From IMG/VR virus record IMGVR_UViG_3300014625_000033: DNA of 12,579 nucleotides, one strand, 5' to 3'. Shown here in pieces: positions 642-12,579 of this stretch. This DNA is from a virus (lineage: Duplodnaviria > Heunggongvirae > Uroviricota > Caudoviricetes). The notes beneath the pieces are model-generated. The model saw only the letters and a list, made by a program, of their open reading frames with translations, was not told the origin of the DNA and ran no database searches. Position 1 is the stretch's first letter, and each line of letters begins with the position of its first letter. A program made the position numbers and the translations under genes.

Positions 642-848
642 CTTCATTTTCACTTTCTTAAATCTAACGACAGATGGCTAACATTTAAGTATTGTGAAAT
701 ATTATCAAATGTAATCATCATTGATTTACAAAAGATACATTTTGCCCCGAAAGGATTTCTGTCAGAAACATCAAAAGATGATGTTCTATACTGAGAACCA
801 TGGCAACACGGGCATCTAAAGTGAATATGGTTTGTAATATTTTCTACC

Positions 849-1061
849 TCAAAGTGCCACTACATGAACAGCTGCAGGGCCTTTAGGTCCGTTCTCAATA
901 CCAAATTCGACTTCCTGATTCTCAGTTAACGTTTTGAAATCGTTGCTCTGAATAGCTGAGAAATGCACAAACACATCTTTGCTACCATCTTTCGGCGTGA
1001 TGAAACCAAAACCTTTTTCAGGGTTAAACCATTTCACTAAACCAGTCATTTTGTTAGACAT
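849..1061 (-). CDS. cspI: Cold-shock protein CspI (CspA family, S1-like cold-shock domain), 70 aa
   Basis: Translation [70 protein letters not shown] carries the RNP1/RNP2 motifs (KGFGFI, VFVHF) and matches CspI as I recall it. SD AAGG upstream of the tandem ATGs. Confidence 0.9.
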
Positions 1062-1204
1062 CATTATTACCTTTTGAAGAAGTTAGCCCTTGGGCAGAAT
1101 GGTCCGAAAAAAAATATCAGAAAGAAAAACCAACAAGGAAATCTCAAGAGGTACAAATAATAAAATTATAACAATGACTGCTTCAGATAATTTTGTAACA
1201 AACC

Positions 1205-1241
1205 AGAACACCATTAACGCATGATTAACCAACCATAGCAA
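1205..1241 (-). promoter_or_regulatory. Candidate cspA-type promoter for cspI: -35 TTGCTA (1241..1236), 17-bp spacer, -10 GTTAAT (1218..1213), AT-rich UP-like region upstream; predicts a 5'UTR of about 145 nt
   Basis: Minus-strand read: TTGCTAtggttggttaatcatgcGTTAAT. This resembles the cspA promoter architecture (TTGCAT / CTTAAT), and the predicted leader length matches the long leaders typical of cold-shock genes. Confidence 0.4.
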
Positions 1242-6517: not shown

Positions 6518-7522
6518 TTAGGCCAGCACACCAATTGCCAGCGCGCGATCGATAAATCGAAAAATCAGCTCCAGTTGGGAGCCATACTTCTCTTCAAATG
6601 CCACGGTATCCGTATGCAACTCGTCGTGATGCTTTCTGCACAAAGGCAAAACAAAGAGATCATGTGCTTTGGTTCCCATTCCGCCCTGCCCGTGACCAAT
6701 CAGATGATGCGGATCGTCGGCTGGCATACCGCAGCAAGCACACGGCTGTGTCTTAACCCAGCGTGTGTATTTCTCCTTAACCCACCGGTGACGTTTAGGC
6801 AGCTTCATGAAAGATTCCGGAGACTCTGGATCAACGGTGATGCTTACCACCGTCTTTTCCTGTGATGGGTTTTGTTGCTGGTGGGCGTGAGGCAACGGTG
6901 CAAGATTTTTTGTGCGCTGTTTCAATATGCTGGTGGCGGTCTGCTCTCCCGGTACGATGTCGCTTTCGCGGTACACCGAGCAGATTTTTTCCGCTGGTAA
7001 TCCCAGCGAGCGACGTAATACCGCTTCCGGTAGCGCGTCCGCCAGCTGATTGCGGACCGCCCACCAGGATAATTCAGCCAGAGATAATTCACGCTCCTGC
7101 GTACCGCTTATTGCGTGACCGATGACGTCAATCATCCATGCTGACAGGTTTTGATGAGCAAGTTGCTCGAGTGATTCGGATGTCTGGTCACGCAGCTGGT
7201 TGTCGCAGTGCCAGCACAACACCATTGCGCCGGTACCATATCGGTGAATAACGGTTTCGCTGTGATGATAATCGCCGTGTGGCCACTGGCAGGATTTAAT
7301 ATGGCGCAACAGCCAGTCAGACAATGCACCAGCACCACCAGCAGCACGAATTACCCGTGCGTTACTGAAAAACGGCAGCAATGTTTTGTCTTCCACCAGC
7401 GGCTGGCGAACGGCAGGAACGACCCCGGACGGCAGATTACGCATGCTTTTCGGTTCCGGCTCCACCAGTACCCGGGTATTGTGGAATACCGGCATGGATT
7501 CACGGCCCGGCTTAACGACCAC
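6518..7522 (-). CDS. ydfU: YdfU-like DUF968 protein with C-terminal HNH-like Cys/His motif, 334 aa (GTG at 7522; alternative ATG at 7495)
   Basis: C-terminus [22 protein letters not shown]...[10 protein letters not shown] has CxxC...HH...C..HH spacing typical of HNH nucleases. Position between rem and Q matches K-12 Qin. Confidence 0.75.
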
Positions 7523-7772
7523 CAGCCCGAGTTCCGGTATCCCTGGTGTCGATAGCCTTCCAGCGTTCGAATATCTTCACTCGATTAACGCTAAGCGCTC
7601 GCTGATCAACCGCGCCACCTTCATATGTGACACGCTGAACATCGATGTTCGGGCGCTCTTTCAAAGCCCAGAATGCTTCAGTGATTAATATCGTCGCCTG
7701 CTCCTGTGTCATTCCTGGTCGACATATCCAGGCATCCAGAGCCTCACGAGCCTGTTCAGGAGTGATTTTCAT
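7512..7772 (-). CDS. rem: Rem-like small protein, 86 aa
   Basis: ATG at 7772; translation MKITPEQAREALDAWICRPGMTQEQATILITEAFWALKERPNIDVQRVTYEGG... Synteny with K-12 Qin rem. It overlaps both neighbours (dicC-like 3' end and ydfU 5' end). Confidence 0.6.
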   Translation of the reverse strand: MKITPEQAREALDAWICRPGMTQEQATILITEAFWALKERPNIDVQRVTYEGGAVDQRALSVNRVKIFERWKAIDTRDTGTRAGGR

Positions 7773-7983
7773 TGTTCAACCGCCCCGCCCGCTTCGTCTT
7801 ACGATATTCGTCATAAACTTTGGGATCATACTGAAGCTCCCCGCCAGATGCCTCCTGTAGACGCATCGCGCGACCTTCAGGAACCAGTATCCCCCAAGCA
7901 GCAACACTTGCCAGTCTCACTCCTGCGGCATTGGCAAGCTTTGTTTTGCTGCCAAAAAAAGTAATTGCGTCAACTTTAAGCAT
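7756..7983 (-). CDS. dicC: Cro-like regulator DicC (YdaS/DicC family), 75 aa from ATG at 7983
   Basis: Small ORF divergent from the dicA-like repressor across an operator-containing intergenic region; SD AGAGGGGG; length about 76 aa as for DicC. Identification is by position, size and partial sequence recall. Confidence 0.7.
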   Translation of the reverse strand: MLKVDAITFFGSKTKLANAAGVRLASVAAWGILVPEGRAMRLQEASGGELQYDPKVYDEYRKTKRAGRLNNENHS

Positions 7984-7996
7984 CAAAGCCCCCTCT

Positions 7997-8014
7997 TGTT
8001 AGACTTTTCTAACA
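7997..8014. promoter_or_regulatory. Operator-like palindrome TGTTAGA-cttt-TCTAACA in the dicC/dicA divergent promoter region
   Basis: Perfect 7-bp inverted repeat with 4-bp spacer, 14 nt from the dicC-like start codon; the same half-sites recur downstream of dicA (8507..8526). Confidence 0.55.
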
Positions 8015-8063
8015 TTATTGTGCGCGGGATACCTAAGTCAAGAAAAATTAGAATTACCTAACT

Positions 8064-8471
8064 ATGGATACAAGAACCCTAGGCCAGCGAGTTCTGGCGC
8101 GACGAAAAGAATTACGCTTAACACAACGAGAAGCTGCGCGCCTCGCTGGAGTTGCTCACGTCACAATTTCACAATGGGAAAGAGACGAAACCCAGCCAGT
8201 CGGAAAACGATTGTTTGCTTTAGCGGATGCTCTGAAGTGCTCACCTACATGGCTAATGTTTGGTGACGAAGACAAGGCACCAGTGCCTGCACAAGAACTT
8301 CATGTGGAAACAGAGCTAACTCCCAACCACAAAGAATTGATCGAATTATTCGATGCTCTTCCATCTTCCGAGCAGGAAGCCTTGCTGTCTGAAATGCGCG
8401 CAAGAGTAGAAAACTTCAACAAACTCTTCGAAGAAATGCTTAAAGCGCGTAAAAATAAATCAATAAAATAA
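8064..8471 (+). CDS. dicA: DicA-type prophage repressor (HTH_XRE / cI-like), 135 aa
   Basis: N-terminal HTH (LTQREAARLAGVAHVTISQWER) and the segment KRLFALADALKCSPTWLMFGDEDK...NFNKLFEEMLKAR resemble DicA as I recall it. Weak or absent SD suggests a near-leaderless mRNA, like lambda cI from PRM. Confidence 0.85.
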   Translation: MDTRTLGQRVLARRKELRLTQREAARLAGVAHVTISQWERDETQPVGKRLFALADALKCSPTWLMFGDEDKAPVPAQELHVETELTPNHKELIELFDALPSSEQEALLSEMRARVENFNKLFEEMLKARKNKSIK

Positions 8472-8506
8472 CATTCTTTTCAAGTGATTAGTTGCGCCCA
8501 CTCTTT

Positions 8507-8526
8507 TTGTTAGATCAATCTAACAA
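8507..8526. promoter_or_regulatory. Second operator-like palindrome TTGTTAGA-tcaa-TCTAACAA upstream of the ydfA-dicB operon; degenerate third copy at about 8544..8560 (TGTTAG-N5-TCTAAA)
   Basis: 8-bp perfect inverted repeat with the same half-site as 7997..8014, located between the dicA stop and ydfA. Consistent with repressor control of the dicB operon promoter. Confidence 0.55.
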
Positions 8527-8639
8527 AAAACACTTGCCTCTCGTGTTAGGTTATTCTAAATTACTTTCCATCAAGACACCGCACGGTGTTCTCAGCAAAC
8601 AGTTCCGCGACCCCGGCGTTAAGGGGAAATGAGGTCAGC

Positions 8640-8792
8640 ATGGATACTATCGATCTTGGCAACAGCGAATCTCTGGTATGTGGCGTGTTCCCCAACCAGG
8701 ACGGTACGTTCACCGCGATGACATATACCAAAAGCAAAACGTTTAAAACCGAATCTGGCGCGCGTTGCTGGTTAGCCAGAAACACTGACTGA
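8640..8792 (+). CDS. ydfA: YdfA-like small protein (DUF1391), 50 aa from ATG at 8640
   Basis: MDTIDLGNSESLVCGVFPNQDGTFTAMTYTKSKTFKTESGARCWLARNTD; SD GAGG 5 nt upstream. The ORF-track start at 8586 is GTG and lacks an SD. Confidence 0.7.
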   Translation: MDTIDLGNSESLVCGVFPNQDGTFTAMTYTKSKTFKTESGARCWLARNTD

Positions 8793-9169
8793 TGAGGCTG
8801 ACGATGGAATTTAAAGATTTACCGTCTGATGTACAGAAAACAGCAGCTCATACATTGCATTCTGTGCTGCGAGAAATCGGGAAAGATATTGCAAGCGAGC
8901 CAGCAAAAGATCTGGCCCGGAAAATCAAGACCGCTTTCGTTGAGCTTTGTAATGTTGGCACTGACTCTGAAACTGTCGAGACCAAGACCGTAAGTTCACC
9001 AATATTCTCACTTGAGCCAGGCGTATTATCAGGTGAAATATGCACCGAGATTTCCAGCGAACTGCTTCCGGTAATACGAGAAGCAATTTGCCGTCGCGGT
9101 TTGGATGGAAGTTACGATCATGACGTCCTGCAAGTTCTCAGGACAATGGTGACTTCACTGGGGATTTGA
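8792..9169 (+). CDS. YdfB/YdfC-region hypothetical protein, 125 aa (alternative start ATG 8804 with SD GAGG, 121 aa)
   Basis: Intact ORF; ATG 8792 overlaps the ydfA stop (TGATG). K-12 has two short ORFs (ydfB, ydfC) here; this looks like a single longer reading frame. Confidence 0.55.
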   Translation: MRLTMEFKDLPSDVQKTAAHTLHSVLREIGKDIASEPAKDLARKIKTAFVELCNVGTDSETVETKTVSSPIFSLEPGVLSGEICTEISSELLPVIREAICRRGLDGSYDHDVLQVLRTMVTSLGI

Positions 9170-9338
9170 TCCCTGCGTCCTCTAACCTTTTGATATAGCG
9201 GTCCTCCAAGAAGCGGTAAATTTTGTCGAAATCATCTTTCCCCTCTGGTTTATTCAGAGGATTACAGGACCCGTAAGTAGCGGCATACATTTCAACCGTT
9301 TTATCAAAAATATAAGAGACAAATTCTTCTTTAGTCAT
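9138..9338 (-). CDS. Small hypothetical protein, 66 aa (MTKEEFVSYIFDKTVEMYAATYGSCNPLNKPEGKDDFDKIYRFLEDRYIKRLEDAGIKSPVKSPLS), antisense to the dicB operon
   Basis: ATG at 9338 with good SD (AAGAAGGA, 7-nt spacing). Hydrophilic, non-repetitive sequence. Its 3' end overlaps the upstream + strand CDS by 32 nt. No homolog recognised. Confidence 0.4.
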   Translation of the reverse strand: MTKEEFVSYIFDKTVEMYAATYGSCNPLNKPEGKDDFDKIYRFLEDRYIKRLEDAGIKSPVKSPLS

Positions 9339-9613
9339 ATAGATTTCCTTCTTGGTTATTCGGAATAAGAAGGATACCACCTCGCCTGACGTGGTTAAAA
9401 GCAGGCACACAACACGAAAGCGCACGGCGAAGTTCGTCTCACTGTACAGTGTCGTTAAATTTAATTCGACCGTGCGCTTCCGGTTGTGGCAACCCGCGAA
9501 ATGGCGCGGCGGTAAGTATGGCGGGGTTATTCCTTCCCCGTTGAGGACACCGAGTTGTCAGGTTGACCATACGCTTAAGTGACAACCCCGCTGCAACGCC
9601 CTCTGTTATCAAT

Positions 9614-9671
9614 TTTCTGGTGACGTTTGGCGGTATCAGTTTTACTCCGTGACTGCTCTGCCGCCGTTTTT
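9614..9671 (+). ncRNA. dicF: DicF small regulatory RNA (Hfq-dependent, represses ftsZ translation)
   Basis: Sequence TTTCTGGTGACGTTTGGCGGTATCAGTTTTACTCCGTGACTGCTCTGCCGCCGTTTTT matches the E. coli DicF sequence I recall almost base for base, including the terminal hairpin and U-tract. Confidence 0.9.
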
Positions 9672-9840
9672 AAAGTGAATTTTGTGATGCGGTGAATGCG
9701 GCTAAGCGCACGCGGAACAGTTAAAACCAAAAACAGTGTTATGGGTGGATTCTCTGTATCCGGCGTTAATTGTTAACTGGTTAACGTCACCTGGAGGCAC
9801 CAGGCACTGCATCACAAAATTCATTGTTGAGGACGCGATA

Positions 9841-10029
9841 ATGAAAACGTTATTACCAAACGTTAATACGTCTGAAGGTTGTTTTGAAATTGGTGTCACT
9901 ATCAGTAACCCTGTATTTACTGAAGATGCCATTAACAAGAGAAAACAAGAACGGGAGCTATTAAATAAAATATGCATTGTTTCAATGCTGGCTCGTTTAC
10001 GTCTGATGCCAAAAGGATGTGCACAATGA
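9841..10029 (+). CDS. dicB: Cell-division inhibitor DicB, 62 aa
   Basis: MKTLLPNVNTSEGCFEIGVTISNPVFTEDAINKRKQERELLNKICIVSMLARLRLMPKGCAQ matches DicB as I recall it. SD GAGGA 6 nt upstream. The ORF-track extension upstream (from 9736) is leader, not coding. Confidence 0.9.
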   Translation: MKTLLPNVNTSEGCFEIGVTISNPVFTEDAINKRKQERELLNKICIVSMLARLRLMPKGCAQ

Positions 10030-10217
10030 ATTCAGCATTTGCGCTTGTTCTGACAGTTTTTCTTGTTTCCGGAGAGCCAGTTGATATTGCAGTCAGTGTT
10101 CACAGGACAATGCAGGAGTGTATGACTGCAGCAACCGAACAGAAAATTCCCGGTAACTGTTACCCGGTCGATAAAGTTATTCACCAGGATAATATCGAAA
10201 TCCCGGCAGGTCTTTAA
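10026..10217 (+). CDS. ydfD: YdfD small membrane protein (reported lysis-inducing protein of Qin), 63 aa
   Basis: MNSAFALVLTVFLVSGEPVDIAVSVHRTMQECMTAATEQKIPGNCYPVDKVIHQDNIEIPAGL; N-terminal TM segment. Its ATG overlaps the dicB stop (ATGA). Confidence 0.85.
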   Translation: MNSAFALVLTVFLVSGEPVDIAVSVHRTMQECMTAATEQKIPGNCYPVDKVIHQDNIEIPAGL

Positions 10218-10310
10218 AACAGTTCCGTAATAAATATCCGGTTTCATTCTTATATGCCAGCAATGGCAGGGATTTGTTCATCCTTAAATCTGTCATGAGG
10301 TTAAAACAAA

Positions 10311-10940
10311 ATGAGTAAAGTCTTTATTTGCGCCGCTATTTCTGACGAACTGGCAACAAGGGAAGAAGGCGCTGTGGCTGTAGCCACAGCCATTGAAGCT
10401 GGCGACGAACGCCGTGCTCGAGCAAAATTTCACTGGCAGTTCCTGGAACATTATCCGGCTGCTCAGGACTGCGCTTATAAATTTATTGTCTGCGAGGATA
10501 AACCTGGCATACCCCGCCCTGCCCTCGATTCATGGGATGCTGAATATATGCAGGAAAACCGCTGGGATGAGGAGTCTGCTTCTTTTGTCCCGGTTATGAC
10601 CGATGAAATCCCGTTAGATGATGCACTGTTACAATTGCGGGAATTTATCGACGAAAACTCCGGTGAATTTTTTGTTCATGTCTGGGGAAATGGAGCCAAC
10701 TTCGACAACACGATTTTGCGCCGTTCATACGAACGGCAGGGGATCCCCTGCCCGTGGCGTTACTACAACGATCGCGATGTACGCACAATCGTTGAGCTGG
10801 GGAAAGCCATAGACTTCGATGCCAGAACGGCTATTCCATTCGAAGGTGAGCGCCATAATGCACTTGATGACGCCCGTTACCAGGCAAAATACGTTTCAGC
10901 TATCTGGCAAAAACTGATCCCGAGTCAGGCTGATTCTTAA
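10311..10940 (+). CDS. ydfE: YdfE-like protein, 209 aa, with C-terminal DnaQ-like 3'-5' exonuclease-type motifs; apparently intact
   Basis: Motifs VWGNGANFDNTIL (Exo II-like N..FD) and ERHNALDDARYQAKY (Exo III-like H-x-A-L-D-D-A). No canonical N-terminal D-x-E Exo I motif was seen. Position after ydfD matches K-12 ydfE, which I recall as disrupted there. Confidence 0.7.
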   Translation: MSKVFICAAISDELATREEGAVAVATAIEAGDERRARAKFHWQFLEHYPAAQDCAYKFIVCEDKPGIPRPALDSWDAEYMQENRWDEESASFVPVMTDEIPLDDALLQLREFIDENSGEFFVHVWGNGANFDNTILRRSYERQGIPCPWRYYNDRDVRTIVELGKAIDFDARTAIPFEGERHNALDDARYQAKYVSAIWQKLIPSQADS

Positions 10941-11012
10941 TGTTCAACTGTCGCCGGTTGTGACTGGTATTCTGCAACCGGCGCTCGTCTGATGTAAGAG
11001 ATAAAGAAATCG

Positions 11013-11264
11013 ATGAGCGAAGTAATCATGATTGTCTCTCCCGGCAAATGGGTATCCGAAGAGCAGTTAATTGCGCTGAAAGGAATAAAAAAAGGTACGT
11101 TAAAAAAGGCCCGGGAAAAATCGTTTATGGAAGGAAGGGAATATAAGCATGTCGCTCATGACGGTATGCCATGGGATAACAGTCCATGCTTTTACAACCT
11201 GGAAGAAATTGATCGCTGGATTGAGCGCCAGGCATCAGCAAGACCAAGACGTCATCTTACTTGA
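11013..11264 (+). CDS. Excisionase-like small protein (putative Xis), 83 aa
   Basis: Small basic protein immediately upstream of and co-directional with the integrase; ends 35 nt before the int start. Assignment is positional plus general resemblance; weak SD. Confidence 0.5.
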   Translation: MSEVIMIVSPGKWVSEEQLIALKGIKKGTLKKAREKSFMEGREYKHVAHDGMPWDNSPCFYNLEEIDRWIERQASARPRRHLT

Positions 11265-11298
11265 CTAAAAGCCACACTAACTAATGAGAGAAGTTGAA

Positions 11299-12579
11299 AT
11301 GAAATATCCGACAGGCGTGGAAAACCATGGAGGGAAATTACGTATCTGGTTTGTTTATAAAGGCGTAAGAGTCAGGGAAAACCTGGGGGTTCCTGACACA
11401 GCAAAAAACAGGCGCGTTGCAGGTGAGCTACGCGCCTCTGTTTGTTACGCAATAAAAACTGGTGTTTTCGACTATGCAAAACAGTTTCCCTCCTCACGCA
11501 ATCTGGAAAAATTTGGTGAGGCCCGACAAGATTTAACCATAAAAGAACTGGCTGAAAAATTTCTGGCACTGAAAGAAACTGAAGTCGCAAAAACATCACT
11601 CAACACATACCGTGCCGTCATCAAAAATATCCTGAGCATAATCGGTGAAAAAAATCTTGCCTCATCGATTAATAAAGAAAAATTACTGGAGGTTCGTAAA
11701 GAGCTACTGACTGGATACCAGATCCCCAAAAGTAACTATATTGTTACACAACCAGGGAGATCGGCTGTAACTGTAAATAATTACATGACAAATCTTAACG
11801 CCGTGTTCCAGTTTGGTGTTGATAACGGTTACCTGGCAGATAACCCGTTTAAGGGGATCTCGCCATTAAAGGAATCAAGAACCATTCCGGATCCTCTTTC
11901 GCGGGAGGAATTCATCCGTCTTATCGATGCGTGCAGAAATCAGCAAGCCAAAAATTTATGGTGTGTTTCTGTTTATACTGGCGTTCGCCCTGGTGAGCTG
12001 TGTGCACTTGGATGGGAGGACATAGATCTGAAAAATGGAACAATGATGATCAGGAGAAATTTAGCAAAAGACCGTTTCACGGTCCCAAAAACACAGGCGG
12101 GAACCAATCGGGTCATTCATCTTATTAAGCCAGCAATCGACGCTCTCCGGAGTCAGATGACATTAACGAGACTGAGCAAAGAGCATATCATTGATGTTCA
12201 CCTCAGAGAGTATGGCAGAACAGAAAAACATAAATGCACCTTTGTTTTTCAACCTGAAGTGTCAGCGAGAGTAAAAAATTATGGTGACCATTTTACCGTT
12301 GACTCAATAAGGCAGATGTGGGACGCAGCGATAAAACGTGCCGGACTCCGCCATCGAAAATCATATCAGTCGAGACATACTTATGCCTGCTGGTCGCTGA
12401 CAGCTGGTGCTAACCCTGCATTTATAGCAAACCAGATGGGCCATGCAGATGCGCAAATGGTATTTCAGGTATACGGAAAATGGATGTCTGAAAACAATAA
12501 TGCACAGGTAGCTTTGTTAAATACACAGTTAAGCGAGTTTGCCCCAACCATGCCCCATAACGAAGCAATGAAAAATTAA
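11299..12579 (+). CDS. intQ: Phage integrase, tyrosine recombinase family (N-terminal arm-binding domain + C-terminal catalytic domain), 426 aa from ATG at 11299
   Basis: Catalytic-domain signatures are present (VYTGVRPGELCALGWEDIDL...; SRHTYACWSLTAGANPAFIANQMGHADAQMVFQVYGKW, i.e. R...HxxR...Y). SD GAGAGAAG before 11299. Stop TAA is at the last 3 nt of the window. Confidence 0.9.
   Translation: MKYPTGVENHGGKLRIWFVYKGVRVRENLGVPDTAKNRRVAGELRASVCYAIKTGVFDYAKQFPSSRNLEKFGEARQDLTIKELAEKFLALKETEVAKTSLNTYRAVIKNILSIIGEKNLASSINKEKLLEVRKELLTGYQIPKSNYIVTQPGRSAVTVNNYMTNLNAVFQFGVDNGYLADNPFKGISPLKESRTIPDPLSREEFIRLIDACRNQQAKNLWCVSVYTGVRPGELCALGWEDIDLKNGTMMIRRNLAKDRFTVPKTQAGTNRVIHLIKPAIDALRSQMTLTRLSKEHIIDVHLREYGRTEKHKCTFVFQPEVSARVKNYGDHFTVDSIRQMWDAAIKRAGLRHRKSYQSRHTYACWSLTAGANPAFIANQMGHADAQMVFQVYGKWMSENNNAQVALLNTQLSEFAPTMPHNEAMKN

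What the first reader, a model, noticed from the sequence alone, without database searches (positions are those of the whole stretch)
8586..10940. Complete host-targeting dicB operon (ydfA, ydfB/C-like, DicF sRNA, dicB, ydfD) with an apparently intact ydfE-like exonuclease-motif gene
DicF and DicB are near-identical to the E. coli K-12 sequences I recall. Known functions: DicF represses ftsZ translation, DicB inhibits division via MinC and has been reported to confer phage resistance, and YdfD has been reported to cause lysis. dicB/ydfD overlap (ATGA) and ydfA/next gene overlap (TGATG), consistent with coupling. The 209-aa ydfE-like ORF is uninterrupted and carries Exo II/Exo III-like motifs but no obvious Exo I D-x-E, so it may be a divergent or non-catalytic exonuclease-fold protein.
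Basis: partly seen in the sequence, partly recalled or inferred. Interest (0 to 1): 0.45.

Follow-up and report, generated by a model that had tools for sequence, protein, structure and literature searches.

The report
dicBF operon plus deleted exonuclease remnant
This is the well-known dicB/DicF cell-division-inhibitor operon of a Qin-type cryptic E. coli prophage, and the "intact" 209-aa exonuclease-like gene after it is what remains of an 823-aa prophage exonuclease gene after a clean in-frame 1,842-bp internal deletion, which explains the missing catalytic motif.

Summary
DicF is at 9615-9666 (Rfam 72.5 bits, 52/53 nt identical to K-12). dicB is at 9841-10029 (62/62 aa), ydfD at 10026-10217 (62/63, ATGA overlap) and ydfA at 8640-8792 (43/50). 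They lie downstream of a DicA/DicC-type immunity region and a positionally conserved dicBp promoter.

Two details do not hold:
- The ORF after ydfA (121/125 aa) is unrelated to K-12 YdfB/YdfC. It is a different cassette, phrog_33007.
- The 209-aa "ydfE-like" ORF is not an intact or divergent gene. It equals residues 1-95 plus 710-823 of an 823-aa prophage exonuclease, with no amino-acid difference. E. coli H2 and more than 23,000 database members carry the full-length protein.

The deletion is 1,842 bp (614 codons, in frame) with a 2-nt microhomology, junction at window 10595|10596. It removes Exo I (IDLETMG, residues 645-651) and the first 73 of 177 profile positions of the DEDDh (Rv2179c/DexA-like) domain.

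The allele is natural but rare: about 20 contigs carry it, and 0 of 5,426 complete E. coli genomes. It co-occurs with a second, 5.5-kb deletion that removed replication genes, hokD and the Rem antirepressor.

Verdict: ordinary prophage decay around a known operon.

The parts
7756..7986 (-). dicC-like Cro-type regulator (76 aa)
   Evidence: NCBIfam DicC subfamily, 165.7 bits against a cut-off of 130. Pfam P22_Cro. 65/76 aa identical to K-12 DicC.
7996..8062 (.). dicC/dicA intergenic region with two candidate operators (7996-8014 TTGTTAGACTTTTCTAACA; 8045-8062)
   Evidence: These sequences are repeated in the dicA-ydfA intergenic region (repeat finder D1, I1, I2). Their operator role is inferred by analogy with the K-12 DicA operators described in PMC10448788.
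8064..8471 (+). DicA-family repressor (135 aa) of a different immunity type from K-12
   Evidence: NCBIfam 'transcriptional repressor DicA' subfamily, 224.7 bits against a cut-off of 101, covering 1-134. Only 75/135 aa identical to K-12 DicA.
8504..8562 (+). dicBp-equivalent (PL-like) promoter region. Perfect palindrome operator at 8504-8529, -35 TTGCCT at 8534-8539, 17-nt spacer, -10 TAAATT at 8557-8562, second operator at 8545-8562.
   Evidence: Colinear with the K-12 dicA-ydfA intergenic sequence: CACTTGACC-N17-TAATCT in K-12 against CACTTGCCT-N17-TAAATT here. Repeats. The hexamers match 8 of 12 positions, just under the scanner's threshold. Promoter function is inferred.
8640..8792 (+). 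ydfA (DUF1391, 50 aa)
   Evidence: Pfam PF07151, 92.7 bits. 43/50 aa identical to K-12 YdfA. RefSeq start in strain H2.
8804..9169 (+). 121-aa ORF (alternative start 8792, 125 aa) occupying the ydfB/ydfC slot but unrelated to either
   Evidence: phrog_33007, 270.9 bits, residues 5-125. No Pfam or NCBIfam hit. No similarity to K-12 YdfB or YdfC.
9138..9338 (-). Antisense 66-aa ORF annotated as hypothetical in RefSeq. Status as a gene is uncertain.
   Evidence: WP_000159335.1 in strain H2. phrog_34441, 170 bits.
9615..9666 (+). DicF sRNA with terminator stem and T-run
   Evidence: Rfam RF00039, 72.5 bits, E = 9.5e-15, full model. 52/53 nt identical to K-12 dicF.
9841..10029 (+). dicB (62 aa)
   Evidence: Pfam DicB, 136.8 bits. 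NCBIfam, 132.8 bits. 62/62 aa identical to K-12.
10026..10217 (+). ydfD (63 aa), ATGA overlap with dicB
   Evidence: Pfam DUF1482, 92 bits. 62/63 aa identical to K-12. Junction sequence.
10311..10940 (+). Deletion allele (missing residues 96-709) of the 823-aa prophage exonuclease: YdfE_N-type N-terminus (aa 1-95) fused to the C-terminal 114 aa of the DEDDh domain
   Evidence: Equals residues 1-95 plus 710-823 of WP_089545991.1. Pfam Rv2179c-like matches profile positions 74-177 of 177 only. phrog_2082 (823-aa exonuclease) is matched in two stretches.
10594..10597 (+). Deletion junction (10595|10596) with TT microhomology at 10594-10595
   Evidence: The two blastn pieces against strain H2 overlap by 2 nt, and 1,842 bp are missing between them.
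11013..11264 (+). Excisionase (DUF1233), downstream on the same strand
   Evidence: Pfam PF06806, 108 bits. RefSeq annotates an excisionase in strain H2.
11299..12579 (+). Tyrosine integrase (426 aa) at the prophage end next to rspB
   Evidence: 99.95% identical to the H2 integrase region. rspB and rspA follow in H2 and in loci L003-L007.
7537..7540 (.). Junction of a second, 5,471-bp deletion. It truncates ydaT and removes replication-region genes, AIPR, hokD, rem and the start of ydfU.
   Evidence: blastn against H2 locus L009 and its annotation. The same junction is present in L003-L005.

Best explanation
The region is the early-left (PL-like, 'dicBF') operon of a Qin-type cryptic lambdoid prophage integrated next to rspB.

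How it most likely works:
- A DicA-family repressor, of a different immunity type from K-12, sits just upstream. By analogy with K-12 it represses a promoter (dicBp equivalent, about 8534-8562) flanked and overlapped by palindromic operators.
- When derepressed, a polycistronic transcript would run through ydfA, an unrelated 121-aa gene, dicF, dicB, ydfD, the exonuclease remnant, and probably xis and int.
- DicF is processed out of that transcript and represses ftsZ, xylR and pykA mRNAs.
- DicB, acting with MinC, blocks division and ManXYZ-dependent phage entry.
- YdfD causes lysis.

The last 'gene' of the finding is not an intact protein-coding innovation. It is an 823-aa prophage exonuclease gene that lost codons 96-709 in one illegitimate-recombination event (2-nt microhomology, in frame by chance). 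The resulting 209-aa ORF fuses the first 95 residues to the last 114. It lacks the Exo I Asp and Glu and about 40% of the DEDDh domain, so it is almost certainly catalytically dead and probably unable to form the native exonuclease domain.

A second deletion in the same lineage removed the replication region and the rem antirepressor. The element is therefore a further-decayed Qin relative that still retains the small host-targeting genes.

Shown here: sequence identities, domain coverage, deletion junctions and the distribution of the allele. Inferred: promoter and operator function, transcript extent, and loss of activity of the remnant.
For: Operon identity:
- Rfam DicF, 72.5 bits.
- Pfam and NCBIfam hits for DicB, YdfD, YdfA, DicA and DicC.
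- Residue-level identity to K-12.
- K-12 gene order, from the annotated Qin region.

Deletion:
- Window 7538-10595 and 10594-12579 align to E. coli H2 at 99.97% and 99.95%. 1,842 bp of H2 are missing between the two pieces, which overlap by 2 nt.
- The translated 209-aa ORF equals H2 residues 1-95 plus 710-823 exactly.
- H2 annotates a 2,472-bp 'exonuclease' gene at that position.

Domain loss:
- Rv2179c-like profile positions 74-177 of 177 are matched in the remnant, against 2-177 in the full-length protein.
- The Exo I motif IDLETMG at 645-651 lies inside the deleted segment.
- The intact domain matches PDB 8KEL (T4 DexA) at E = 4.5e-13 by profile. The remnant has no significant PDB hit.

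The allele is real but rare:
- The exact protein is found on about 20 contigs from several sources. Six fetched loci carry the junction.
- No record among the 5,426 complete E. coli genomes covers at least 80% of the ORF.
- The allele's cluster has 5 members, against 23,183 for the full-length protein's cluster.

Other:
- The promoter region is colinear with K-12 dicBp and has repeated palindromes.
- The K-12 functions and the DicA and Rem regulation come from PMC10448788, PMC5069750, PMC6832061 and PMC8835842.
Against: - No expression data exist for this allele or this immunity type.
- The promoter hexamers match the consensus at only 8 of 12 positions, and the generic scan did not call them.
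- The ORF is open and in frame, so a translated 209-aa product is possible, and some residual or new function cannot be excluded.
- Two other in-frame N-terminus/C-terminus fusions of the same gene exist in public data. This could hint at selection rather than pure decay, although only in-frame events are visible to a protein search.
- The AlphaFold2 models were low-confidence for both the remnant and the intact domain, so they say nothing about foldability.
Confidence: 0.9

Rival explanations
1. The 209-aa ORF is a genuine, intact, divergent DEDD-fold protein that evolved without Exo I (a non-catalytic exonuclease-fold protein).
For: The ORF is uninterrupted, has a plausible Shine-Dalgarno sequence (GAGG 12 nt upstream of the ATG) and retains Exo II and Exo III. 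Pfam Rv2179c-like scores 124.6 bits.
Against: There is no divergence. Both halves are identical in amino-acid sequence to the 823-aa protein, and the join is a single 1,842-bp deletion. The Pfam match begins at profile position 74 of 177. The allele is in about 20 contigs against more than 23,000 full-length cluster members, and in none of the 5,426 complete genomes.
Confidence: 0.02
2. The in-frame N-terminus/C-terminus fusion is maintained by selection. It might act as a small non-catalytic protein (for example a dominant-negative or binding module built from YdfE_N plus the C-terminal subdomain). Alternatively, keeping the frame open might avoid polarity on the downstream xis and int genes.
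For: Three independent in-frame internal deletions of the same gene exist: residues 96-709, about 133-694, and about 63-671. All keep the N-terminus and the last 114-152 residues, and all remove Exo I. One of them (P0023) is on 19 contigs.
Against: - A protein-level search sees only in-frame survivors. Out-of-frame deletions appear as N-terminal fragments, of which there are very many (one search lists numerous partial or short forms; K-12 ydfE is itself a truncated pseudogene).
- One deletion in three is in frame by chance.
- The three junctions differ, with no shared domain boundary.
- Each allele is rare.
- The prophage is otherwise decaying: a second 5.5-kb deletion co-occurs in the same lineage.
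Confidence: 0.05
3. The deletion is an assembly or sequencing artefact (a collapsed contig), and the real genome carries the full-length gene.
For: No complete (mostly long-read) E. coli genome carries the junction.
Against: The identical junction occurs in independent assemblies from NCBI, Logan, ENA and JGI samples, on contigs up to 825 kb. There is no repeat at the junction that could cause a collapse; the microhomology is only 2 nt.
Confidence: 0.01

Closest known systems
dicBF operon of the cryptic prophage Qin, E. coli K-12 (ydfABC-dicF-dicB-ydfDE, repressed by DicA at dicBp)
   Same: - Same gene order and same chromosomal site (next to rspB).
- DicF 52/53 nt, DicB 62/62 aa, YdfD 62/63 aa and YdfA 43/50 aa identical to K-12.
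- DicA- and DicC-family regulators lie upstream.
- The promoter region is colinear.
   Different: - The repressor is only 56% identical to K-12 DicA, and the operator half-sites differ, so this is another immunity type.
- ydfB and ydfC are replaced by an unrelated 121-aa gene plus an antisense ORF.
- xis and int are intact here, whereas K-12 intQ is a pseudogene.
- The last gene was damaged by an internal deletion rather than by IS2.
- rem is deleted.
K-12 ydfE pseudogene (b1577)
   Same: It derives from the same 823-aa exonuclease gene. The first 95 aa are 94/95 identical.
   Different: K-12 keeps roughly the first 255 residues and is then cut by IS2E. This window keeps residues 1-95 and 710-823 as one open frame.
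823-aa prophage 'exonuclease' (phrog_2082; WP_089545991.1): YdfE_N domain, RecE-like central region, C-terminal Rv2179c/DexA-like DEDDh domain
   Same: The window ORF is the same gene; the retained parts are identical in amino-acid sequence.
   Different: Residues 96-709 are missing, including Exo I and the first 68 residues of the exonuclease domain.
Phage T4 DexA (PDB 8KEL) and bacterial DexA homologues such as EcD (PMC12153337)
   Same: The intact C-terminal domain of the parent protein matches DexA by profile (E = 4.5e-13). The DEDDh motifs align (IDFETMG in DexA against IDLETMG).
   Different: The remnant lacks the part that gives most of that match and has no significant PDB hit. EcD is a different protein: its cloning primer begins ATGATTGACACCGAAAC, which encodes MIDTE. 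No activity data exist for the 823-aa family.
Lambda PL operon (N ... kil ... exo/bet/gam ... xis-int)
   Same: The repressor gene is followed by a repressed leftward promoter, small host-targeting genes including a division inhibitor, a nuclease gene, and then xis and int. The analogy is stated for Qin in PMC10448788.
   Different: The genes differ. The repressor is short and has no RecA-cleavage site (PMC10448788). No N-type antiterminator was identified here.

Membership tests
Qin-type dicBF operon | DicF sRNA | tested here: met
   Rfam RF00039, 72.5 bits against a gathering score of 48. 52/53 nt identical to K-12.
Qin-type dicBF operon | DicB protein immediately downstream of dicF, with ydfD overlapping its stop codon | tested here: met
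   Pfam DicB, 136.8 bits. NCBIfam, 132.8 bits against a cut-off of 100. DUF1482, 92 bits. ATGA overlap present.
Qin-type dicBF operon | DicA/DicC immunity region and a DicA-repressed promoter upstream of ydfA | tested here: inconclusive
   The DicA and DicC subfamily models score above their cut-offs. The promoter and operators are colinear with K-12, and the palindromes recur in both intergenic regions. Binding and repression were not testable.
Qin-type dicBF operon | ydfB and ydfC between ydfA and dicF | tested here: not met
   No protein or DNA similarity. The slot holds a phrog_33007 gene.
Qin-type dicBF operon | Polycistronic transcription and RNase III/RNase E processing of DicF | not testable with these tools
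   About 220 nt upstream of dicF fall within a 97.3%-identical match to K-12. The processing is known only for K-12 (PMC10448788).
DEDDh 3'-5' exonuclease (Pfam Rv2179c-like / DexA-like) | Exo I motif (D-x-E) | tested here: not met
   IDLETMG lies at residues 645-651 of the parent protein, inside the deleted segment 96-709.
DEDDh 3'-5' exonuclease (Pfam Rv2179c-like / DexA-like) | Exo II (Asp) and Exo III (H-x4-D) | tested here: met
   GNGANFDN at residue 126 and HNALDDA at residue 182 of the 209-aa ORF. These columns are invariant in alignment A2.
DEDDh 3'-5' exonuclease (Pfam Rv2179c-like / DexA-like) | Complete domain | tested here: not met
   Profile positions 74-177 of 177 only, against 2-177 in the full-length protein.
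DEDDh 3'-5' exonuclease (Pfam Rv2179c-like / DexA-like) | Exonuclease activity | not testable with these tools
   Needs a biochemical assay.
823-aa prophage exonuclease (phrog_2082) | Full-length colinear match | tested here: not met
   The match falls in two stretches, N-terminal residues 1-97 and the C-terminal end. 614 internal residues are absent.

The most novel reading that the evidence does not exclude
The in-frame fusion of the YdfE_N N-terminus to the Exo II/III half of the DEDDh domain is a selected, functional small protein, or is selected to keep translation running into xis and int. It would have arisen repeatedly: three independent in-frame alleles of 209, 214 and 261 aa exist, all lacking Exo I.
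Probability: 0.04. Interest if true: 0.4.

Novelty: already known. Interest (0 to 1): 0.1.

Why it matters
It matters little beyond correct annotation.
- The dicBF module and its functions are established.
- The useful result is negative. An ORF that looks like an intact Exo I-less exonuclease is a deletion remnant and should be annotated as a pseudogene or deletion allele, not pursued as a new non-catalytic DEDD protein.
- The locus illustrates the usual pattern of cryptic-prophage decay. The large replication and nuclease genes and the antirepressor are lost, while the small host-targeting genes (DicF, DicB, YdfD) and their repressor stay essentially unchanged.
- The lineage lacks rem, so Rem-dependent induction of the operon, known from K-12, cannot come from this element.

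Tried and rejected
- AlphaFold2 on the 209-aa ORF (alignment A1) gave mean pLDDT 39.5. The control, the intact domain (P0046, alignment A2), gave 45.9. Both alignments are shallow (mostly 57-99% identical to the first sequence). The models are uninformative, so no fold search was run.
- A sequence search of the 209-aa ORF against the PDB gave only noise at E of about 0.9.
- The junction 36-mer was not found in any GTDB species-representative genome.
- The generic promoter and terminator scan found no more sites than in shuffled sequence and did not call the dicBp-equivalent promoter. Its hexamers match 8 of 12 positions, just below the threshold.
- I asked whether the E. coli anti-T4 exonuclease EcD (PMC12153337) is this protein. 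Its cloning primer encodes MIDTE, not MIDLE, so it is a different DexA homologue.
- A literature search for ydfE plus exonuclease plus prophage returned nothing.
- Assembly artefact was considered and rejected, because the junction occurs in multiple independent assemblies.
Full report
**What is in the sequence**

Rfam finds a full-length DicF at 9615-9666 on the + strand (72.5 bits against a gathering score of 48). Compared with the annotated K-12 MG1655 Qin region:
- DicF is 52/53 nt identical. The only change is the last base after the terminator stem, and a T-run follows.
- DicB (9841-10029) is 62/62 aa identical.
- YdfD (10026-10217) is 62/63 aa identical.
- YdfA (8640-8792) is 43/50 aa identical.

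Pfam and NCBIfam agree: DicB 136.8 and 132.8 bits, DUF1482 92 bits, DUF1391 92.7 bits. The dicB/ydfD ATGA overlap is there. This part of the finding is real and far beyond chance.

**Corrections to the operon description**

- ydfA most likely starts at ATG 8640, which has GAGG five bases upstream and is the RefSeq start in strain H2. It probably does not start at GTG 8586.
- The ORF after ydfA (8792 or 8804 to 9169) is not ydfB/C-like. It gives no alignment to K-12 YdfB or YdfC. K-12 DNA similarity is absent from 8784 to 9396. The ORF belongs to phrog_33007.
- Its likelier start is ATG 8804 (GAGG upstream, RefSeq start, PHROG profile begins at residue 5). The TGATG 'overlap' at 8790-8794 is therefore weak evidence for coupling.
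- RefSeq also annotates a 66-aa ORF on the opposite strand at 9138-9338 (phrog_34441), which overlaps the end of that gene.

**Regulatory context**

Upstream lie a DicA-family repressor (8064-8471) and a divergent DicC/Cro-type gene (7756-7986, minus strand). The repressor scores 224.7 bits on the NCBIfam DicA subfamily against a cut-off of 101, but is only 75/135 aa identical to K-12 DicA. The DicC-type gene scores 165.7 bits against a cut-off of 130.

The dicA-ydfA spacer is colinear with K-12. K-12 reads CACTTGACC-N17-TAATCT; here it reads CACTTGCCT-N17-TAAATT (-35 at 8534-8539, -10 at 8557-8562).

A perfect palindrome, TTTTTGTTAGAT-CA-ATCTAACAAAAA (8504-8529), and a second related site (8545-8562) flank and overlap these hexamers. 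Copies also occur in the dicC-dicA spacer at 7996-8014 and 8045-8062.

In K-12, dicBp lies between dicA and ydfA. It is repressed about 22-fold by DicA through operators resembling those of lambda PL, is derepressed by the Qin antirepressor Rem, and gives the polycistronic transcript from which RNase III and RNase E release DicF (PMC10448788). I infer the same arrangement here, with a different immunity specificity. Nothing suggests a dead promoter, but the hexamers match only 8 of 12 positions and the generic scan did not call them.

**The '209-aa ydfE-like' ORF**

A megablast of the finding against 5,426 complete E. coli genomes stopped at query base 2010, which is window 10595. The ORF alone never matched over more than 55% of its length in one piece.

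In the best-matching genome (E. coli H2, NZ_CP028733.1) the corresponding gene is a 2,472-bp, 823-aa 'exonuclease', WP_089545991.1. Window 7538-10595 and 10594-12579 align to H2 at 99.97% and 99.95% identity. 1,842 bp of H2 are missing between them, and the two pieces overlap by 2 nt (TT).

Translation shows that the 209-aa ORF equals residues 1-95 plus 710-823 of the H2 protein exactly. The deletion is 614 codons, hence in frame.

The full-length protein carries a complete Rv2179c-like DEDDh domain at residues 642-813, matching profile positions 2-177. The remnant matches only profile positions 74-177.

Exo I (IDLETMG, residues 645-651) lies in the deleted part. Exo II (GNGANFDN) and Exo III (HNALDDA) remain, at residues 126 and 182 of the remnant. 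The cause is deletion, not divergence.

With two of the DEDDh catalytic residues gone (the Exo I Asp and Glu) and the first 68 residues of the domain gone, catalysis is not expected. This is inference from the established DEDD mechanism.

**Is the allele real, and how common is it?**

- The exact 209-aa protein occurs on about 20 contigs from NCBI, Logan, ENA and JGI samples.
- Six fetched loci carry the junction 36-mer. They show the same neighbourhood, ending at rspB-rspA, which is the K-12 Qin site.
- Its 90% cluster has 5 members, against 23,183 for the full-length protein's cluster.
- No complete E. coli genome and no GTDB representative genome has it.

It is therefore a genuine but rare, lineage-restricted allele.

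**A second deletion in the same lineage**

Relative to H2, the window lacks 5,471 bp at 7538/7539, again with a 2-nt overlap. The missing segment carries:
- the C-terminal part of ydaT;
- the replication-region genes;
- DUF977;
- an AIPR gene;
- hokD;
- rem;
- a 92-aa ORF;
- the first 28 nt of ydfU.

This junction co-occurs with the exonuclease junction in L003-L005. The element is thus a further-decayed relative of the H2 prophage. It has lost its own Rem antirepressor.

**Other deletion alleles of the same gene**

The homologue search returned two more in-frame N-terminus/C-terminus fusions with different junctions:
- P0022 (261 aa), missing about residues 133-694;
- P0023 (214 aa, 19 contigs), missing about residues 63-671.

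P0021 is a slightly diverged copy of the present allele. All of them remove Exo I.

The search also returned very many N-terminal or C-terminal fragments, and K-12 ydfE is itself an IS2-truncated N-terminal fragment (94/95 aa identical over the shared start). The gene is evidently a frequent casualty of prophage decay. The in-frame survivors are what a protein search can see, so I do not read the recurrence as evidence of selection, though I cannot exclude it.

**What the parent gene is**

- Its C-terminal domain matches T4 DexA (PDB 8KEL) at E = 4.5e-13 by profile, with the Exo I regions aligned.
- Its central part matches the PHROG families phrog_607 ('exonuclease VII') and phrog_412 ('exonuclease VIII'), and precomputed Pfam calls the N-terminus YdfE_N. 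That this central similarity is RecE-like is my reading of the 'exonuclease VIII' name.
- A 2025 paper reports that an E. coli DexA homologue, EcD, selectively degrades 5hmC T4 DNA and protects against T4 (PMC12153337). EcD's cloning primer encodes MIDTE, so it is a different protein.

This is a lead for the function of the intact 823-aa family only. It has no bearing on the truncated copy here.

**What led nowhere**

- AlphaFold2 models of the remnant and of the intact domain were both low-confidence (pLDDT 39.5 and 45.9) with the shallow alignments available, so no fold search was run.
- The remnant alone has no significant PDB sequence match.

**Verdict**

- The dicF-dicB-ydfD core and ydfA are as described and already well known.
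- 'ydfB/C-like' is wrong.
- The 'intact exonuclease-motif gene' is an in-frame deletion remnant.

Known functions (DicF on ftsZ, xylR and pykA, PMC5069750; DicB with MinC on division and ManXYZ-dependent phage entry, PMC6832061 and PMC10448788; YdfD lysis through IspG, PMC8835842) can be transferred to the nearly identical genes here by homology. The novelty category is 'already known' and interest is low.

Noticed in passing
window 7538-7539 (H2 record NZ_CP028733.1 2366737-2372207 missing): A second deletion of 5,471 bp with 2-nt microhomology. It truncates ydaT to an 86-aa ORF (7512-7772, minus strand). It removes the replication-region genes, DUF977, an AIPR gene, hokD, the Rem antirepressor, a 92-aa ORF and the first 28 nt of ydfU. 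The same junction is present in L003-L005.
   Followed up: yes
proteins P0022 (261 aa) and P0023 (214 aa, 19 contigs), compared with L001:7726-10197: Two further independent in-frame internal deletions of the same 823-aa exonuclease gene (missing about residues 133-694 and about 63-671). Both fuse the N-terminus to a C-terminal piece that lacks Exo I.
   Followed up: partly
L001:7726-10197 (823-aa parent protein): A mosaic protein: a YdfE_N N-terminus, a central region matching the PHROG families phrog_607 ('exonuclease VII') and phrog_412 ('exonuclease VIII'), a Cys-rich CxxC...CxxC stretch, and a C-terminal DEDDh domain matching T4 DexA (PDB 8KEL, E = 4.5e-13). The family is uncharacterised although its cluster has more than 23,000 members. 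An E. coli DexA homologue (EcD, a different protein) was reported as an anti-T4 defence (PMC12153337).
   Followed up: partly
window 9138-9338 (-): A 66-aa ORF antisense to the operon, overlapping the 3' end of the 121-aa gene by 32 nt. RefSeq annotates it as hypothetical (WP_000159335.1) and it matches phrog_34441 at full length. It is unclear whether it is a real convergent gene.
   Followed up: partly
window 8784-9396: A cassette swap relative to K-12. The ydfB-ydfC segment is replaced by unrelated DNA (the 121-aa ORF plus the antisense ORF), while the flanks stay 78-97% identical. The first roughly 50 residues of the 121-aa protein also match the N-terminal ends of three other PHROG families (phrog_9419, phrog_1363, phrog_2151).
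   Followed up: partly
window 7996-8062 and 8504-8562: Four related palindromic sites (core TGTTAGA-N5-TCTAACA), shared between the dicC-dicA and dicA-ydfA spacers. They are candidate operators of a DicA-family repressor whose specificity differs from K-12 (56% identity).
   Followed up: partly
window 803-1208 (-): An Rfam cspA thermoregulator hit (111 bits) on the 5' leader of the prophage cold-shock gene (cspI in strain H2).
   Followed up: no
L004 11675-18044: In one carrier assembly (GCA_946062815.1) the prophage integrase gene is split. Another integrase-bearing element is inserted before rspB; it carries DinI, an acyltransferase and tail-fibre assembly genes.
   Followed up: no
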